Shown: positions 45,480-51,156 of the stretch, in pieces
Layout of the letters: each line of letters starts with the position of its first letter
How positions within the stretch are numbered: the first letter of the stretch is position 1
Virus record (IMG/VR): IMGVR_UViG_3300034103_001442
Location: 1-64,000 of that record
DNA length: 64,000 nucleotides
Strand: one strand, 5' to 3'
Source of the DNA: a virus
Position numbers and translations under genes: made by a program
The notes under the pieces: generated by a model
Database searches by the model: none
The model's input: only the letters and a program-made list of their open reading frames with translations
What the model was told of the DNA's origin: nothing

Positions 45480-47048
45480 TTACTTCGTCATGATCTCGTC
45501 GCCAACAACCAGAACGTCAAGATCACTTGTATCAAATAGTTTCTTTGCGTCATCCACGTATCCAGCAATAGGTGCGCCATTCACATTGAGTGAAGTGTTT
45601 AGCACCATTGGAATACCAGTTTTGCGTCGGAAACTTTCGATCAAGTCTCGGTAAATTGCATATTGTGGCTGCTCATTCACTGTTTGAATTCGGCAAGTAC
45701 CATCAACGTGCAAAATAGGTTTGAATTGAGTCTTATCAAGAGCATCAATTACATAAAGCATATATGGACTTTCATAGTCGCAGTCAAAATATTGGCTGGT
45801 GTATTCATTCAAAATAGATGCACCAAATGGACGGTATGGTTCACGCTTTTTAACACGCTCATTCAAAATGTCCTTACCGTTTTCAACATTTGGGTTCATC
45901 AAAATAGAACGATTGCCCAACGCTCTTGGTCCAATTTCACCATTGCCTTGGTACCACGCTACTATTTTACCCTGAGCAAGAAATTCCGCGGTCTTTTCTA
46001 TAGTGGATGCTGATGGCGTGCTATCAGGTGCTTGATCACTTTGCCAATATGGGAAGTTGCTATTGTCAAACTTCGGCTGGCAGAAAAGTTTACGCAGGAA
46101 CTCAACACAACCCAAACTCAAACCGTCATCTGGACAGTGAGGTGGGATATGCATATTCTTGAAACGTTTACGTAGCGAGGTGTTCACCACGGTGTTTTGA
46201 GCAGTACCGCCCGAGTATGTAATCACATCATCTGGATTTGCATACAGTGAGAAGTAGTCAGGCATCTTGCGCTCACCAAACACATGCATCCAGTGTGATA
46301 GATTAATCAACTGCTGTCTTTCGTCGGGAACTGGAACCAACATTTGGTTGGCTTGCATTGCAATTTGAATGAACTGATTGAGGTGGCGGTAACGCAGTGG
46401 CTCAACAAACTTCATCAAATGGTTGGTCAAATCATCGGGGACATTGTGGAATGACTTGAGTGCCATCAGTTTGCCAGCAATATCAAGAACAATTCCTTCA
46501 ATGCCGATCTTTTGTCCAACCTGTTCCATGGTGACTGACAGCCCCATGTTTTCGCTACGGTCTACATACTCAACGAGTTGGTCATTCTTAAAAATACCAG
46601 AAATGCGACCATGATCACCCAAACCGTCAAGAACAAAATGGGTTGATACTGTATCAAGATCGACAAGTGGCCAACAACTCAAAGTGTGTGAGTAGTGGTG
46701 GTCAACGCGATAAACTGGGCACTTGAATTGCGACCAAAGTTCATTTTTGCTTTTGTCGATTTCAAAGTAGTTCTCATTGATTTGAACTTCACGATCCAAC
46801 TTATGAAGTCCTGGATCATTTGAAATACAGATGCCATCAAGTTCCTGTAGGTCAATACCAAAAATGTCTTTGGCATGCTGAAGTAACTCTGGAACATCAT
46901 CCTTCTTTTCTACATCGCCACCCTTGATGGATGCGGTGTTGTAGTGCTTCTTTTGGACATTGCGTTCAATTTTGGCATAGCGAACCTTGATGCCGTCTGA
47001 ATATGCAATGTTACAATCATGACCGTTACGAATACCTAAAAATTTCAT
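45480..47048 (-). CDS. Carbamoyltransferase (NodU/CmcH/TobZ family)
   Basis: HD...ER...HHYSH...DGLGD...GKLMAL...GG.AQN...D.GLSLG; C-terminal G.IVAWYQG..EIGPRALGNRSIL...KKREPYRPFG...HVDGTCRIQTV...LNTSLN. Confidence 0.93.
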   Translation of the reverse strand: MKFLGIRNGHDCNIAYSDGIKVRYAKIERNVQKKHYNTASIKGGDVEKKDDVPELLQHAKDIFGIDLQELDGICISNDPGLHKLDREVQINENYFEIDKSKNELWSQFKCPVYRVDHHYSHTLSCWPLVDLDTVSTHFVLDGLGDHGRISGIFKNDQLVEYVDRSENMGLSVTMEQVGQKIGIEGIVLDIAGKLMALKSFHNVPDDLTNHLMKFVEPLRYRHLNQFIQIAMQANQMLVPVPDERQQLINLSHWMHVFGERKMPDYFSLYANPDDVITYSGGTAQNTVVNTSLRKRFKNMHIPPHCPDDGLSLGCVEFLRKLFCQPKFDNSNFPYWQSDQAPDSTPSASTIEKTAEFLAQGKIVAWYQGNGEIGPRALGNRSILMNPNVENGKDILNERVKKREPYRPFGASILNEYTSQYFDCDYESPYMLYVIDALDKTQFKPILHVDGTCRIQTVNEQPQYAIYRDLIESFRRKTGIPMVLNTSLNVNGAPIAGYVDDAKKLFDTSDLDVLVVGDEIMTK

Positions 47049-47063: not shown

Positions 47064-47648
47064 TCAACTGAACGTTTCTTTCAATGCCTTCTTACATTTG
47101 AAAACGTTATACTGTACGAATGGTTTATACTTCAGACACTTATTATATATGCCTGGCCAAATAATGGTGTCTTCAATTTTCTTGTTCCAATATGGAAAAA
47201 AGTTGAAGATGTCATTCAGTATGATCAGGGTTTCAATGCTTATTTCTTTACGCAAAAACATCCTGAGTAAGTGTGGATGCTGTCCATCTTTAATTATAAT
47301 GTTTTCATCAAATTTAGTCAATAACTTTTTTGTCTCATTAGAAAAAATATATGTCAATGACTCCTGCTTTTTGAGCCAGTTGTTATAAATTTCCTCAGCA
47401 TCATCACTGAATAAGTCGCCAACCCACTTCAAATCACGTTCGACAAAGTTGGATACCAAAAATTTTTCAGCATCTTTATGCTTGCTCAGTCTATAAAACT
47501 GATACTTGTCTTTGCGTCGCTCAAATGAGTCACTGGTCGCTTTGACCTTTCCCTGGTACTTGAAGTAATCGTACCCACCGTCAAAGTGATATTTGAGAGC
47601 AAGAAATTTTTTATATGCTTCAAATGGACTCATACTCAATGAAATCAT
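47064..47648 (-). CDS. gp59: Helicase loader gp59
   Basis: FEAYK..LALK.HF...YDYFKYQGK......F..RKDKY.F..L...ISIETL.IL...KY.PF. Confidence 0.9.
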   Translation of the reverse strand: MISLSMSPFEAYKKFLALKYHFDGGYDYFKYQGKVKATSDSFERRKDKYQFYRLSKHKDAEKFLVSNFVERDLKWVGDLFSDDAEEIYNNWLKKQESLTYIFSNETKKLLTKFDENIIIKDGQHPHLLRMFLRKEISIETLIILNDIFNFFPYWNKKIEDTIIWPGIYNKCLKYKPFVQYNVFKCKKALKETFS

Positions 47649-47893
47649 ACAGGCAATTTAGCACGCTTTGGGAGGTAGTTCAAATTCTCATAGTCAGACT
47701 GAAGTTTTGACTTCATCTTTGGATTGCTTTTGACAATTGAGGCGGCAGTTTCAATCTCAATATTGTTTTTCTCGCAAAAGTGTACAACAGCATCCACATA
47801 TGTAATACCGAGGTCATTTACGATTTTATCAATCTCACGAATGAAATTTTCCGATGTCAGTGCTGTTTGCACTACCACTTCTTCAGTTTGCAT
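47645..47893 (-). CDS. gp33: Late transcription coactivator gp33
   Basis: F..EI..IV......Y.DA.VH.CE.N.IEIET........K.K.......LN.LP....LP. Confidence 0.9.
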   Translation of the reverse strand: MQTEEVVVQTALTSENFIREIDKIVNDLGITYVDAVVHFCEKNNIEIETAASIVKSNPKMKSKLQSDYENLNYLPKRAKLPV

Positions 47894-47894
47894 A

Positions 47895-48524
47895 TTACCC
47901 CTTGTAAAATAAATGATTGCCTATTTGTCTGACAAATTGTTTGGTCTTTGACCAACTAGGCTCAACATAGTCTGCATGAAAGAATGTCGCATTACCAATT
48001 ATACCGTAGTCACGTTTTAAAATCAATATGTTCTCAGCAATTTTCACGGATTCTTTCCATGATTGGTTACGTCGGACAATTTTGCCATCCTCGCAAACCC
48101 AAGAAAATTGACAAACACCCTTGACCTTTTGGTGAACAACACCACAAACTGTTCTTGGGTATTGTTTACTTTTGACACGGTTCATAGTCACTTCAGCGAC
48201 TGCGACTTTACCAGCATGCGGTTCGCCGCCAGCCTCAAAGTAAATATTTCTCGCCAAGCACTCAACTTCCTTCAGCACTGTCTTTTTCTTTTCATAAGAC
48301 AGGTTGAGAAATTCGACTTTATGATTCAACACTTCAAGTTCCGAAACAAGAAGTTCATTTGTTTCTTTTTGTGCTTCAAGTTTTTCTTGCATCCTGTCAA
48401 CTATGTTATAGGGTACAAACAGGGTGAAGAAAACTAGAGCAAAGAGTCCACCAAATCTCAAAAACAAATTATGATTTCTATCAAAATAGTTTTCAATACG
48501 ATGTAATGTGTCTACTGCATTCAT
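47895..48524 (-). CDS. Cell wall hydrolase SleB/CwlJ family with N-terminal TM helix and coiled coil
   Basis: CLARNIYFEAGGE...GKVAVA.V..NRV....YP.TVCGVV.Q....CQFSW.C...ATFFHADYV.P.W......IGNHLFY. Confidence 0.92.
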   Translation of the reverse strand: MNAVDTLHRIENYFDRNHNLFLRFGGLFALVFFTLFVPYNIVDRMQEKLEAQKETNELLVSELEVLNHKVEFLNLSYEKKKTVLKEVECLARNIYFEAGGEPHAGKVAVAEVTMNRVKSKQYPRTVCGVVHQKVKGVCQFSWVCEDGKIVRRNQSWKESVKIAENILILKRDYGIIGNATFFHADYVEPSWSKTKQFVRQIGNHLFYKG

Positions 48525-48554
48525 GTGTATTTTGCCTCCATTATTGCAGTTGAA

Positions 48555-48590
48555 AGAAAAGGGTGGACAGTTTTTACACTGCCACCCCTG
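48555..48590 (-). terminator. Rho-independent terminator at the 3' end of the tmRNA gene
   Basis: Minus strand GGGGTGG-CAG-TGTAAAAA-CTG-T-CCACCC-TTTTCTTT. Confidence 0.7.
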
Positions 48591-48830
48591 ACTATTCTGT
48601 TACCAAGTAGTCAACTCTGGTATTCTTATACTGCTATTAAGCAGCAAGAGCCATGTCGTAATTGCTATCGTTTGCAGTTACTATTTTGCGCTGATTAAGT
48701 CAGTCGCCTCACTGGTAGCCGTCTGGTTATTACTTGCTCCGTCGAAACTGTGCACCCCCATAGTGGTGGAGGTGGTGGGAATCGCACCCACGTCCGAAAC
48801 ACTTTTAACAGTCAGTTTACTACCATTAGT
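48560..48830 (-). ncRNA. ssrA: tmRNA (ssrA), circularly permuted two-piece form; tag peptide ANDSNYDMALAA
   Basis: Acceptor piece comes first: T-arm GTGGG-TGCGATT-CCCAC, then CACCTCC-A-CCA ending at 48764. A 4-nt spacer CTAT follows, then the coding piece starts GGGGGTG at 48759, giving a 7-bp acceptor stem with a G3.U70 Ala determinant. Inter-piece helices TGGTAGT/GCTACCA and TGTTTCG/CGGAGCA. Resume codon GCA at 48675, tag ending TAA TAG at 48639-48634. Confidence 0.95.
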
Positions 48831-48834
48831 TTGG

Positions 48835-48842
48835 TATTTATT
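48835..48842 (-). promoter_or_regulatory. Late-type promoter (AATAAATA) directly upstream of the tmRNA
   Basis: Same nnTAAATA element is found at intergenic sites 1964, 8484, 10818, 19073, 34340, 51150, 56285 and 57986. Confidence 0.6.
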
Positions 48843-48846
48843 TCAA

Positions 48847-49413
48847 TTAAAAAGGCGCATCCTCTTCACCCTTGAGCCAATTGAGAATTGTCTTTGGTGA
48901 AGTTTCGCCATATGGATCAGTTGGGCAGTTGTCCTTTTTGCCAGGCTCAATGAACCACTTTTCAATCTTACCGTTGTCAGCAACCACGGCATAACGCCAT
49001 GAGCGGTATCCAAAACCAAGGTTGTCCTTATCAACTAGCATTCGCATTTTGCTGGTGAAGTTACCACTGCCATCAGGAATGACTTTGACATTTTGAATGT
49101 TCTGAGCCTTTGCCCAAGCATTCATAACGAAAGCATCATTGACTGATACGCAATAAATCTCATCAACACCCTGCGCATTGAACTCTTCATACATTTCCTC
49201 AAACCCAGGCAACTGATAGGTTGAGCAGGTTGGGGTGAATGCACCAGGCAATGAGAAAACAACTACACGTTTGCCACCGAAATAATCATAGGATGAAACA
49301 TCCTCCCAGCGGTATGGGTTTGGTCCACCAACTGATTCATCGCGCACTCGAGTCTTAAAGACTACAGCAGGCAAAACCGTAGGCAAATCTTCTTCAAAAT
49401 TATCATCAAACAT
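48847..49413 (-). CDS. Peroxiredoxin (Prx5/AHP1 type)
   Basis: VVVFSLPGAFTPTCS..QLPGFE...DEIYCVSVNDAFVMNAW...IPDGSG.FT...GFG.RSWRYA. Start taken at ATG 49413 after GGAGG. Confidence 0.93.
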   Translation of the reverse strand: MFDDNFEEDLPTVLPAVVFKTRVRDESVGGPNPYRWEDVSSYDYFGGKRVVVFSLPGAFTPTCSTYQLPGFEEMYEEFNAQGVDEIYCVSVNDAFVMNAWAKAQNIQNVKVIPDGSGNFTSKMRMLVDKDNLGFGYRSWRYAVVADNGKIEKWFIEPGKKDNCPTDPYGETSPKTILNWLKGEEDAPF

Positions 49414-49990
49414 TTTCTTCCTCCATAAGAATTTTTTCATAAATTTCCTTCCAATTCCTGACCAGTGGGATCAGGTTGTCAATATAATGCATGTTGTGTT
49501 CGTGTTCCATTAGGATTGAATTCAACCCAATATCAGAACCAACCACAGCATTTTCGATCTTATCTTCAATCCAGTACAACCCCGAATCACGATAGGGTTC
49601 AAGTACCTTATCCTTATCAGCGCCAGTGTCAAGACAAATCACTGACTCGATTGCACTACCAAACAACTTGATCAAATTCTTTTCGCGCAGTCGCTTGGCA
49701 TAAGGGTCAAGGCTCAGTGAAGTGATTACGCGAAAAACGTAACCGTGCTCTTCGTGAAGTCGCTTGACGTAATACATGGCATCACGGTGTGGGGGTAAAA
49801 ACCCAATCGCCGCAGACTCATTAAACTGCCTGATCAGTTTTTTAGCGTTATCAATACCGTAACGTTCTCCAATGTTGTAAGCACTAGTGTCTACAACCTT
49901 GTGACCATGAGTCTCCATCCAACATTCAAATGCAAACTCCCAATTGAGTAGCACACCATCACAATCTGTCAATATCAATTTACTATTCAT
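49406..49990 (-). CDS. HAD-family phosphatase / 5'-nucleotidase-like (T4 gp30.2-like)
   Basis: ILTDCDGVLLNW (DxD motif I), ITSLS, WIEDK..NA..G. Confidence 0.85.
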   Translation of the reverse strand: MNSKLILTDCDGVLLNWEFAFECWMETHGHKVVDTSAYNIGERYGIDNAKKLIRQFNESAAIGFLPPHRDAMYYVKRLHEEHGYVFRVITSLSLDPYAKRLREKNLIKLFGSAIESVICLDTGADKDKVLEPYRDSGLYWIEDKIENAVVGSDIGLNSILMEHEHNMHYIDNLIPLVRNWKEIYEKILMEEENV

Positions 49991-49996
49991 AATACG

Positions 49997-50025
49997 ATAT
50001 TACGGCATTTCAGAAATAAAGTCAA
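49997..50025 (-). promoter_or_regulatory. Early/middle promoter TTGACT-17-TAATAT with TTTATTTCTGAAA box
   Basis: Member of a 6-copy promoter family; ATG lies 6 nt after the -10. Confidence 0.8.
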
Positions 50026-51041
50026 GTGGTAAAAACTCTATTGTGAGTGTCGGTGCATCTTATGAACTCAACCTTGTCTGCAAATTGAGAAAGGTTGGCT
50101 GCACCTACGTAAGTGCATGCGCTTCTGAGCCCTCCGAGCAAGTCTCTGACCGTATTGGACACTGGTCCACGATAAGGTATGGTGACGGTTCTGCCCTCGC
50201 TACTACGGTAATCGGCAACGCCGCCATTGTGTTTGTTCATTGCGGTATCACTGCTCATACCGTAAAACATCACTTTACCATCAATGGGTTTCCTACAACC
50301 CTCATCATGACCAGCGAGCATACCGCCAAGCATTACAAAGTCGGCACCTGCGCCAAATGCTTTAGCAACATCGCCAGGAGAAGTGCAGCCGCCATCAGCA
50401 ATGATATGACCGCCCAAAACGTGAGCAGCATGAGCGCATTCGAGTACTGCTGACAATTGCGGGTAGCCCACTCCAGTTTGTAGACGAGTAGTGCACACAC
50501 TACCAGGACCAATACCAACTTTAACAATATCAACGCCATTCTTAATTAACTCCATTGTCATATCACCAGTGACAACGTTACCCGCAATGAGCGTGGTGGT
50601 TGGAAATTGAGTCCGCAAAATCCGAATTGTATCAATAAATGAATCCGTGTAACCATTAGCAACATCAAGGCAAATATATTGAGGTATGGATGCCTTGAAA
50701 ACTCTAGTCAGTTTTATCAGGTCATTATTATTAGTGCCAATTGAAATCGCAGAATTTGGTTTGGGTGATCTGAAATGACGAATCAATTCTTCTTCGCTGT
50801 AATGCTTAATCAAACAAGTGAACATGTTGTATTTGTCAAGTTCACTTTCCATATTAAAAGTGCCCACCCCATCCATGTTTGCTGCCATGATTGGAGTGCC
50901 AGTGTATTTTTTCTTTGAGTGCTTGAAGGTGTAATTTACATTCAAGTCAACTTCTGATCGTGACTTGAGTTTTGATCGTTTTGGCACAATCAAAACATCA
51001 CTGTAATTGTATTTCAATTCTTCAATTATTTTCATATACAT
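50022..51041 (-). CDS. guaC: GMP reductase
   Basis: DVLI.PKRS.L.SRS.V...PIMAANMDGVGTF...CLDVANGY...AGNVVT...VKVGIGPGSVCTTR..TGVGYPQLSAV.EC...IIADGGC..PGDVAKAFGAGADFVMLGGMLAGH.E...FYGMSS..AM..H.GGVA.YRSSEG; no CBS domains. Confidence 0.93.
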   Translation of the reverse strand: MYMKIIEELKYNYSDVLIVPKRSKLKSRSEVDLNVNYTFKHSKKKYTGTPIMAANMDGVGTFNMESELDKYNMFTCLIKHYSEEELIRHFRSPKPNSAISIGTNNNDLIKLTRVFKASIPQYICLDVANGYTDSFIDTIRILRTQFPTTTLIAGNVVTGDMTMELIKNGVDIVKVGIGPGSVCTTRLQTGVGYPQLSAVLECAHAAHVLGGHIIADGGCTSPGDVAKAFGAGADFVMLGGMLAGHDEGCRKPIDGKVMFYGMSSDTAMNKHNGGVADYRSSEGRTVTIPYRGPVSNTVRDLLGGLRSACTYVGAANLSQFADKVEFIRCTDTHNRVFTT

Positions 51042-51156
51042 CCCAAAAAGAATTCGGTTTATCTCTGTTGGTGCGCATCCAACTTGATCCTACAAAACTA
51101 CCATCGCTGTGCGACAAACTCTACACCGAAAGGTTGAGCGGTAGGTTTTTATTTAG

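What the first reader, a model, noticed from the sequence alone, without database searches (positions are those of the whole stretch)
48560..48842. Phage-encoded circularly permuted (two-piece) tmRNA with a 4-nt intervening segment and a late promoter
Seen: the CCA-ending acceptor piece precedes the 5' GGGGGTG coding piece, separated by only CTAT. It has a G3.U70 pair, a long inter-piece helix, tag ANDSNYDMALAA with a double stop, a non-canonical T-loop TGCGATT, an upstream AATAAATA and a downstream terminator. Known: permuted tmRNAs occur in Alphaproteobacteria, some Betaproteobacteria and some cyanobacteria; phage tmRNAs are uncommon; the C-terminal ALAA is the ClpXP degron. Inference: the phage supplies its own ribosome-rescue RNA late in infection, perhaps against host mRNA/tRNA-cleaving defences, relying on host SmpB (none in this window). 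The very short spacer raises the question of how RNase P and 3' processing act on it.
Basis: partly seen in the sequence, partly recalled or inferred. Interest (0 to 1): 0.8.

Follow-up and report, generated by a model that had tools for sequence, protein, structure and literature searches.

The report
Two-piece tmRNA in T4-like phage
An uncultured T4-like phage carries its own intact split ribosome-rescue RNA (two-piece tmRNA) behind a late promoter; the gene is real, but such genes are already described in related aquatic phages, and its 4-base spacer is the normal state in one group of bacteria.

Summary
ARAGORN and two Rfam models (tmRNA_permuted 147.7 bits, beta_tmRNA 121.1 bits) call a circularly permuted tmRNA on the minus strand at 48552-48842. 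The tag is ANDSNYDMALAA with two stops, there is a G3.U70 pair, CCA is encoded and ends at 48764, and the spacer is CUAU. The gene lies inside phage DNA, between peroxiredoxin and endolysin/gp33/gp59/gp32 genes of a 151.7-kb T4-like virus record that has no SmpB and no integrase.

The late-promoter reading holds. ATAAATA is strongly enriched on the coding strand in intergenic DNA, ahead of baseplate and tail genes.

The novelty is overstated:
- Two-piece tmRNAs at this same slot (upstream of gp33) are published for phage Melnitz and pelagimyophages (PMC9004378).
- I found the same synteny in at least 14 viral contigs.
- A 4-nt spacer is the rule in Rhodocyclaceae tmRNA genes (82 of 86) and recurs in viral copies (3 of 41 in an unbiased sample; median 62 nt).
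- The odd T-loop (G55) is matched by an A in the D-loop, as in the alphaproteobacterial consensus.
- The phage's own tRNA cluster has 1-5-nt spacers, so processing across a short spacer is no puzzle.

Verdict: a new member of a known kind. The same stretch was also noted by this scan in an overlapping window.

The parts
48835..48842 (-). T4-type late promoter box AATAAATA; the predicted transcript start is about 6-7 nt downstream (about 48829)
   Evidence: ATAAATA occurs 38 times on the coding strand and 10 times on the other. 18 of the 38 lie in the 7% of the genome that is intergenic, typically 21-30 nt before start codons. The genes so preceded include the baseplate tail-tube cap, baseplate wedge and a tail-fibre-like protein. 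11 of 23 distinct viral tmRNA copies have TAAATA at the same distance. No sigma-70-like promoter lies upstream of the gene.
48764..48829 (-). Acceptor piece: 5' strand of the long P2 helix (GGUAGU from 48824), T-arm (48791-48775, loop UGCGAUU), 3' acceptor strand CACCUCC, discriminator A and encoded CCA ending at 48764
   Evidence: Rfam alignments; MFE fold. Across 22 viral copies, all 5 T-arm pairs and the inner P2 pairs show compensatory changes and none of those pairs is broken.
48760..48763 (-). Intervening segment CUAU, removed on maturation (inferred)
   Evidence: Read directly from the sequence. The same 4-nt layout is found in 82 of 86 Rhodocyclaceae tmRNA genes, one of them with exactly CTAT. 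It also occurs in viral loci L102, L006, L079 and L105.
48552..48759 (-). Coding piece: 5' acceptor strand GGGGGUG (48759-48753), D-loop analogue CACAG-UUUCGAC, 3' strand of P2, PK1 region, tag frame, two 3' hairpins
   Evidence: The beta_tmRNA model matches end to end, positions 1-331; MFE fold.
48634..48675 (-). Tag reading frame: resume codon GCA (48675-48673), peptide ANDSNYDMALAA, stops UAA UAG (48639-48634)
   Evidence: ARAGORN places the coding part at 182-223 of the gene. L105, from another sample, has the identical tag.
48552..48589 (-). Intrinsic terminator: 12-bp hairpin with one bulged U, then UUUUCUUUC
   Evidence: MFE and centroid folds. The generic scan missed it, probably because of the bulged U.
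48847..49440 (-). Upstream gene: peroxiredoxin. Its stop codon is 4 nt before the late box, so read-through into the tmRNA is possible.
   Evidence: Pfam Redoxin 5e-27; PHROG peroxyredoxin 2e-68.
47645..48524 (-). Downstream genes: cell-wall hydrolase/endolysin (47895-48524) and gp33 late-transcription coactivator (47645-47893), followed by gp59 and gp32
   Evidence: Pfam Hydrolase_2, Trans_coact, T4_Gp59_N/C and gp32. The order tmRNA-(hydrolase)-gp33-gp59-gp32 is conserved in at least 14 viral loci and in Melnitz.

Best explanation
This is a functional ssrA gene of a lytic T4-like phage, encoding a two-piece (circularly permuted) tmRNA.

Shown by the sequence and by comparison:
- A complete tRNA-like domain with alanine identity (G3.U70, A73, encoded CCA).
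- A long inter-piece helix.
- A resume codon and a 12-residue tag ending in ALAA with two stops.
- Its own late-type promoter box and its own terminator.
- Compensatory changes across phage relatives.
- A fixed position upstream of gp33.

Inferred mechanism:
1. The phage's gp33-dependent late transcription makes a precursor of about 275 nt (about 48829 to 48552).
2. The acceptor stem of this precursor is closed by the 8-nt loop ACCA-CUAU.
3. Host RNase P cuts once, 5' of G48759. That one cut creates the mature 5' end of the coding piece and leaves the acceptor piece with a 4-nt trailer.
4. Host 3' exonucleases trim the trailer back to the encoded CCA. The phage's own tightly packed tRNA genes must be processed the same way.
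5. The two pieces stay base-paired. Host AlaRS charges them, and host SmpB and EF-Tu deliver them to stalled ribosomes.
6. The nascent chain receives ANDSNYDMALAA and is degraded by host proteases.

Likely purpose (about 50%): to keep ribosome-rescue capacity up late in infection, when host ssrA transcription has been shut off and truncated mRNAs are abundant.
For: - Identity: ARAGORN and two Rfam models; fold z = -4.1.
- Phage location: T4-like core genes on both sides. The record is a 151.7-kb virus contig with uniform GC of 0.36-0.46. The arrangement was assembled independently in L105 at 99.5-100% protein identity. No integrase is present.
- Selection: 12 of 19 predicted pairs have double compensatory changes across 22 viral copies. 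The G55 T-loop always goes with A in the D-loop and U55 always with G: 8 and 14 distinct viral copies, 85 bacterial. Synteny with gp33/gp59/gp32 is kept down to 25-57% protein identity and in Melnitz. The tmRNA's GC is 0.44, like the phage's 0.41 and unlike bacterial copies at 0.60.
- Late promoter: strand and intergenic enrichment of ATAAATA ahead of structural genes, conserved placement in relatives, and gp33 encoded next door.
- Processing: Rhodocyclaceae rely on genes with the same 4-nt spacer. The phage's tRNA cluster has spacers of 1, 4, 4 and 5 nt.
- Host dependence: no SmpB in the record.
Against: - Nothing here is experimental. Expression, the RNase P cut, alanylation and tagging are all inferred.
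- The record is only 87% complete by CheckV, so an SmpB gene in the missing part cannot be excluded.
- The upstream gene's stop codon is 4 nt from the promoter box with no terminator between them, so earlier read-through transcripts may also carry the tmRNA. Melnitz's authors argued for early expression of theirs.
- The PK1 pseudoknot could not be confirmed.
- The host is unknown, so compatibility with its SmpB and AlaRS is assumed.
Confidence: 0.8

Rival explanations
1. The RNA is a decoy. It binds host SmpB or competes with host tmRNA to damp or redirect host trans-translation, as proposed for the tRNA-like-domain-only molecule of mycobacteriophage DS6A, rather than tagging proteins itself.
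For: The phage has no SmpB, so any copy competes for the host's. A precedent is cited in PMC4131195 and PMC11915505. The tag differs from the Rhodocyclaceae tags ANDERFALAA.
Against: The tag frame is intact, with a canonical resume context, an ALAA end and double stops, and it is identical in a second sample. All 26 viral relatives in which the tmRNA overlapped the searched pattern keep a tag frame ending in AA. A pure decoy would not need this.
Confidence: 0.07
2. The gene is functional, but its expression is not specifically late. It is carried mainly on read-through or earlier transcripts from the upstream peroxiredoxin/auxiliary-gene block, and the AATAAATA box adds little.
For: The stop codon of the upstream gene is 4 nt from the box, with no terminator between them. 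Melnitz and several viral copies have a TTGAC(A/T) -35 box upstream as well as the TATAAATA box. Melnitz's authors favoured early expression.
Against: This copy has no sigma-70-like promoter. The box sits at the same fixed distance from the RNA body as in 11 of 23 distinct relatives. In this genome the motif marks late structural genes.
Confidence: 0.2
3. It is a recently captured host gene, or host DNA at a prophage junction or mis-assembly, with no role for the phage.
For: tmRNA genes are common integration sites, and fragments occur in prophages. The copy is the closest viral branch to Rhodocyclaceae genes.
Against: - T4-like genes lie on both sides, and there is no integrase.
- The layout was assembled identically in another sample.
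- Identity to bacterial copies is only 63-68%, and GC is 0.44 against 0.60.
- The slot is conserved across deeply diverged phages.
- It has a phage-type promoter.
Confidence: 0.02

Closest known systems
Two-piece ssrA of Methylophilales phage Melnitz and related pelagimyophages (Buchholz et al. 2022, PMC9004378; record MZ577097)
   Same: Both are aquatic T4-like myophages (Kyanoviridae-like). In both, the permuted tmRNA sits immediately upstream of the gp33 late coactivator, then gp59 and gp32. Neither has a phage SmpB. Both have a TATAAATA-type box upstream. Both have a G55 T-loop with an AG D-loop.
   Different: - Melnitz's spacer is about 140 nt against 4 nt here.
- Melnitz has the alpha-type GGCAGTA T-loop and is described by its authors as alpha-like; this copy scores best with the beta model.
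- Melnitz has a TTGACA -35 box, and its authors report a glutamine riboswitch at its 3' end. Neither is found here.
- An endolysin gene is inserted between the tmRNA and gp33 here.
- The tags differ: ANDNYVPVDYALAA against ANDSNYDMALAA.
Betaproteobacterial two-piece tmRNA (Rfam RF01850; the third permuted lineage of Sharkady and Williams 2004), specifically the Rhodocyclaceae form (Accumulibacter, Dechloromonas, Azonexus)
   Same: This is the best-scoring Rfam model. The acceptor stem is identical. The spacer is 4 nt in 82 of 86 genes, and one Accumulibacter genome has exactly CTAT. The tag begins AND and ends LAA. The window's copy is sister to this clade with support 0.945.
   Different: - The bacterial genes are chromosomal, with GC 0.60, a sigma-70 promoter in the model, a canonical UUCGAUU T-loop with GG in the D-loop, and 10-residue tags such as ANDERFALAA.
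- The phage copy has GC 0.44, a late-type promoter, the G55/A18 pair and a 12-residue tag.
- Identity is only 63-68%.
One-piece tmRNAs of mycobacteriophages (Bxz1, Cali, Catera and other cluster C phages) and Bacillus phage G (PMC4131195)
   Same: These are also phage-encoded tmRNAs in large lytic myophages that also carry many tRNAs and have no phage SmpB.
   Different: They have the standard, non-permuted gene form, come from unrelated phage lineages, and infect Gram-positive or actinobacterial hosts.
Caulobacter crescentus two-piece tmRNA (Keiler, Shapiro and Williams 2000, cited in PMC9004378)
   Same: It is a permuted gene whose single precursor is cut into an acceptor piece and a coding piece that stay base-paired and tag proteins. 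It is the experimental proof of principle for this gene form (the rest is from my own knowledge).
   Different: It is the alpha-type body, bacterial, with a longer intervening segment.

Membership tests
tmRNA (ssrA), permuted two-piece form | tRNA-like domain: 7-bp acceptor stem with G3.U70, 5-bp T-arm with a 7-nt loop, discriminator A and a 3' CCA | tested here: met
   Read directly from the sequence. Rfam tmRNA_permuted, which models only this domain, scores 147.7 bits against a gathering score of 47. T-arm pairs co-vary in 22 viral copies.
tmRNA (ssrA), permuted two-piece form | Circular permutation: the 3' (acceptor) part is encoded upstream of the 5' (coding) part, joined by an intervening segment | tested here: met
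   ARAGORN flags the gene as permuted. CCA ends at 48764, CUAU follows, and GGGGGUG starts at 48759.
tmRNA (ssrA), permuted two-piece form | Tag reading frame: alanine resume codon without a start codon, short peptide with a hydrophobic C-terminus (..LAA), in-frame stop | tested here: met
   GCA at 48675-48673, ANDSNYDMALAA, UAA UAG. The resume context UAACUGCAAACGAU matches the model consensus.
tmRNA (ssrA), permuted two-piece form | Long helix (P2) holding the two pieces together | tested here: met
   The MFE and centroid folds pair 48824-48794 with 48741-48707 around the tRNA-like core. The inner 7 pairs are supported by compensatory changes.
tmRNA (ssrA), permuted two-piece form | Pseudoknot PK1 just upstream of the resume codon | tested here: inconclusive
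   The 4-bp hairpin of the beta and permuted models aligns here with one non-standard pair. The MFE fold prefers an overlapping alternative hairpin. The second pseudoknot stem was not tested.
tmRNA (ssrA), permuted two-piece form | T-loop/D-loop tertiary contact (positions 18 and 55) | tested here: met
   G55 here is paired with A in the D-loop. The rule G55-A and U55-G holds in all 22 distinct viral and 85 bacterial copies examined. It is also the alpha_tmRNA consensus.
tmRNA (ssrA), permuted two-piece form | Works with SmpB; is cut into two RNAs; is alanylated; tags proteins | not testable with these tools
   No SmpB (PF01668) is found in the 151.7-kb record, which is 87% complete. The rest needs experiments.
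Beta-type (RF01850) sub-family | Full-length match above the curated cut-off, with the clade-specific 5' and 3' extensions | tested here: met
   121.1 bits against a gathering score of 84, model positions 1-331 of 331. It is sister to the Rhodocyclaceae clade in a tree that holds no alpha or cyano bacterial references. It lacks the model's sigma-70 promoter segment (15 nt deleted) and has an alpha-like G55/A18 pair, so it is an atypical member.
T4-type late promoter | TATAAATA-like box at -10 without a -35 element, used with gp55/gp33 | tested here: met
   AATAAATA at 48842-48835 with no sigma-70 match. The motif's genome-wide enrichment lies ahead of structural genes. gp33 is encoded at 47645-47893. 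Actual late timing was not testable.

The most novel reading that the evidence does not exclude
The phage clade holding this gene (window, L105, L027) and the Rhodocyclaceae two-piece tmRNA share one origin, including the minimal 4-5-nt CTAT-type spacer. The bacterial clade nests among much more diverse phage copies in my tree. T4-like phages may therefore have been the vehicle, or even the source, by which a permuted ssrA replaced the standard one-piece gene in that narrow betaproteobacterial sub-lineage, which accounts for only 4 of 151 sampled genomes of the order.
Probability: 0.1. Interest if true: 0.7.

Novelty: new member of a known kind. Interest (0 to 1): 0.3.

Why it matters
It adds a well-defined example to a published but little-studied class: ribosome-rescue RNAs carried by abundant aquatic T4-like phages.

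It is a compact, clean example:
- It has a late-type promoter and no sigma-70-like promoter upstream.
- A single predicted RNase P cut would mature it.
- No Rfam riboswitch family reached its gathering score anywhere in the window.

That makes it a convenient substrate for testing why lytic phages invest in trans-translation. It also links a phage copy to the Rhodocyclaceae form of the gene. It does not change what is known about tmRNA biology.

Tried and rejected
- blastn of the tmRNA against 50,697 phage records found nothing at E below 1e-5. No cultured phage has a close copy. gp32 and gp33 searches gave only distant cyanophage, pelagiphage, Melnitz and Caulobacter phage relatives at 42-54%.
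- The host could not be identified. An order-level search with RF01850 centred on Accumulibacter returned no taxon names. It showed only that 4 of 151 genomes pass the cut-off. Earlier notes gave no host clue.
- The original paper on the beta lineage (PMC516066) is not held, so what it says about the spacer could not be checked.
- A literature search for the COG2908 RNA motif found nothing useful.
- My first viral scan (16 specified bases with a variable gap) was mostly chance hits. Only 28 of 119 loci held a tmRNA.
- Two of my scripts had regex errors and were rerun. My first spacer-length sample was biased by loci from the short-spacer scan and was recomputed.
- The generic terminator scan missed the 3' hairpin, probably because of its bulge, so I relied on the fold.
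- I first took the G55/A18 co-variation for a phage-specific novelty. I rejected that when the alpha_tmRNA consensus showed the same pair.
- Host-flank or prophage-junction origin was considered and rejected.

Full report
**1. Is it there?**

Yes. Read on the minus strand, the region holds the following, in order:

| Feature | Coordinates |
|---|---|
| AATAAATA box | 48842-48835 |
| 5' strand of a long helix (GGUAGU...) | from 48824 |
| T-arm (stem GUGGG/CCCAC, loop UGCGAUU) | 48791-48775 |
| 3' acceptor strand CACCUCC | 48774-48768 |
| Discriminator A | 48767 |
| CCA | 48766-48764 |
| Spacer CUAU | 48763-48760 |
| 5' acceptor strand GGGGGUG | 48759-48753 |
| Resume codon GCA | 48675-48673 |
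| End of tag ANDSNYDMALAA | 48640 |
| Stops UAA UAG | 48639-48634 |
| Terminator hairpin, then U-rich tail | 48589-48559, tail to 48552 |

After the 5' acceptor strand come the D-loop analogue, the return strand of the long helix and a small hairpin region, then the tag frame. The acceptor stem includes a G3.U70 pair.

- ARAGORN calls a permuted tmRNA at 48546-48856 with this tag.
- Rfam's tmRNA_permuted model scores 147.7 bits (gathering 47). The beta_tmRNA model matches end to end at 121.1 bits (gathering 84).
- The 279-nt precursor folds at -93.2 kcal/mol, z = -4.1, and none of 200 shuffles folds as well. The fold reproduces the long helix, the T-arm, the acceptor stem closed by the small loop, and the terminator.

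**2. Is it in a phage?**

Yes. The window belongs to a 151,740-bp IMG/VR virus record that CheckV rates 87% complete. GC is even at 0.36-0.46.

- Downstream on the same strand lie an endolysin-type cell-wall hydrolase, the gp33 late-transcription coactivator, the gp59 helicase loader, a carbamoyltransferase and gp32.
- Upstream lie a peroxiredoxin, a conserved unknown, a GMP-reductase-like gene and a DUF932 gene.
- The record has no integrase.
- A contig from a different sample (L105) carries the same seven-element block at 99.5-100% protein identity with the identical tmRNA tag. This rules out mis-assembly or host flank.
- The nearest cultured phages by gp32 are T4-like cyanophages at about 54%, so this is an uncultured, distant T4-like lineage.

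**3. Is it under selection in phages?**

A scan of viral contigs for the acceptor-stem junction gave 28 loci with permuted tmRNAs.

- In at least 14 of them the order tmRNA-(hydrolase)-gp33-gp59-gp32 is kept, although the proteins are only 25-70% identical to this phage's.
- An alignment of 22 distinct copies gives a consensus fold in which 12 of 19 pairs show double compensatory changes. The five T-arm pairs and the two P2 pairs next to the core have no broken cells. The acceptor stem is invariant, but I selected on it.
- The tmRNA's GC (0.44) matches the phage (0.41), not bacterial copies (0.60).

**4. The odd T-loop**

The loop UGCGAUU has G where tRNAs and most tmRNAs have U55. In tRNAs, position 55 contacts G18 of the D-loop (my own knowledge).

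- Here the D-loop analogue reads CAG-UUUCGAC where the consensus is UGG-UUUCGAC.
- Across all copies examined the rule is perfect. U55 goes with GG (14 distinct viral, 85 bacterial). G55 goes with AG (8 distinct viral copies with three different loop types). Melnitz also obeys it.
- Two almost identical viral tmRNAs, L099 and L108, differ only by a coordinated swap of T-arm and D-loop.
- This is not new biology. The Rfam alpha_tmRNA consensus itself has GGCgGUA with uAG.
- So the loop is a compensated natural variant and not a defect. This copy is a mosaic: a beta-like body with the alpha-like 18/55 pair.

**5. The 4-nt spacer**

- A scan of one genome per bacterial species for the same layout returned 90 loci. 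Nearly all are Rhodocyclaceae: Accumulibacter, Dechloromonas, Azonexus, Propionivibrio, Azospira, Sterolibacterium, Sulfuritalea.
- 82 of 86 of their tmRNA genes have a 4-nt spacer. One Accumulibacter genome has exactly CTAT.
- Other beta-type genes have spacers of about 25-45 nt.
- Among viral copies sampled without constraint on spacer length, the median is 62 nt (range 4-150), and 3 of 41 have 5 nt or fewer. Melnitz has about 140 nt.
- So 4 nt is the short extreme for phages but the norm for one bacterial family that depends on it.
- The phage's own cluster of 22 tRNA genes (genome 111350-116205) has spacers of 1, 4, 4 and 5 nt. The host's RNase P and 3' trimming enzymes must therefore handle such junctions routinely.
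- One RNase P cut 5' of G48759 would make both the mature 5' end of the coding piece and a 4-nt trailer on the acceptor piece, which exonucleases can trim to the encoded CCA. This is inferred from established tRNA processing.

**6. The promoter**

- In the whole genome, ATAAATA occurs 38 times on the coding strand and 10 times on the other.
- 18 of the 38 lie in the 7% of the genome that is intergenic, mostly 21-30 nt before start codons.
- Genes so preceded include the baseplate tail-tube cap, baseplate wedge and a tail-fibre-like protein.
- The phage encodes gp33.
- The box before the tmRNA sits about 10 nt before the RNA body. 11 of 23 distinct viral copies have TAAATA at the same place.
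- No sigma-70-like promoter lies upstream of the gene here. Melnitz and several other copies add a TTGAC(A/T) -35 box.
- Late expression is therefore well supported as a prediction. However, the upstream gene ends 4 nt before the box without a terminator, so read-through cannot be excluded.

**7. What is already known**

- Buchholz et al. [quoted passage not shown]
- They found permuted tmRNAs in 17 of 47 related contigs.
- They counted 53 two-piece tmRNAs among 402 tmRNA-bearing phage genomes, 50 of them aquatic.
- I confirmed the Melnitz layout in MZ577097.
- The 2025 tmRNA database lists 79 unique phage sequences.
- One-piece phage tmRNAs have been known since the mycobacteriophage Bxz1 group.

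The finding is thus a new member of a known kind.

**8. Origin**

In a FastTree of 104 distinct core sequences, the window's copy groups with L105 and L027 (support 0.98). This trio is sister to the Rhodocyclaceae clade (support 0.945). Identity is 63-68% to bacterial copies and 74% to L027, whose spacer is ACTAT.

The tree holds no alpha or cyano bacterial references and rests on about 200 columns. It shows kinship with the Rhodocyclaceae form but not the direction of transfer.

Only 4 of 151 sampled genomes of that bacterial order pass the beta_tmRNA cut-off. That sample included one unpublished genome, G027, on which no claim rests.

**9. Function**

I commit to a working tmRNA that uses host SmpB, AlaRS, RNase P and proteases (0.8).

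Its most likely purpose is to sustain ribosome rescue late in infection, when host transcription is off and broken mRNAs accumulate (about 0.5). This part is inference.

A decoy role is unlikely, because the tag frame is intact and conserved.

Noticed in passing
window 51099-51143 (-): Rfam COG2908 RNA motif: 67.4 bits against a gathering score of 58.7, full length 1-45. It sits in the leader of the GMP-reductase/IMPDH-family gene at 50022-51041. The first-stage reader had flagged this leader as a possible purine riboswitch; it matches a catalogued orphan motif instead. A phage copy in front of a guaC-like gene may help assign that motif a ligand or role.
   Followed up: partly
genome 111350-116205 (-), outside the window: Cluster of 22 tRNA genes with inter-gene spacers as short as 1, 4, 4 and 5 nt (Arg/Gly, Met/Cys, Asp/Ile, Leu/Pro). 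So large a set, in a 41% GC phage, may point to a host of different base composition.
   Followed up: partly
L099:553-703 and L108:2322-2473: Two viral two-piece tmRNAs are nearly identical outside the tRNA-like core. They differ by a coordinated swap of the whole T-arm (GCGGG-UUCGACU-CCCGC against CCGGG-GGCAGUG-CCCGG) and of the D-loop (UGG against CAG). This is a module exchange between the canonical and the alpha-type 18/55 contact.
   Followed up: partly
L240:5985-6437 (Melnitz MZ577097 45984-46436): In Melnitz's ssrA the -10 element of the published 'early' promoter (TTGACA-N17-TATAAATA) is also a perfect T4-type late box, so that gene may be expressed both early and late. Its spacer is about 140 nt.
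   Followed up: partly
window 48640-48675 (-): The tag's first half, ANDSNY, resembles the E. coli-type ANDENY segment that binds the SspB adaptor (my own knowledge), unlike the ANDERF tags of Rhodocyclaceae. A DM insertion precedes ALAA.
   Followed up: no
window 45480-47048 (-): A full-length carbamoyltransferase (Carbam_trans_C, 8.6e-56) is inserted between gp59 and gp32. L065, a distant relative, has a 37%-identical copy elsewhere near its tmRNA.
   Followed up: no
loci L241-L360 (second viral scan): Of 66 ARAGORN tmRNA calls in viral contigs sharing this acceptor/T-arm sequence, 23 are the standard one-piece form. Some may be host flanks of prophages integrated at ssrA rather than phage genes.
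   Followed up: no
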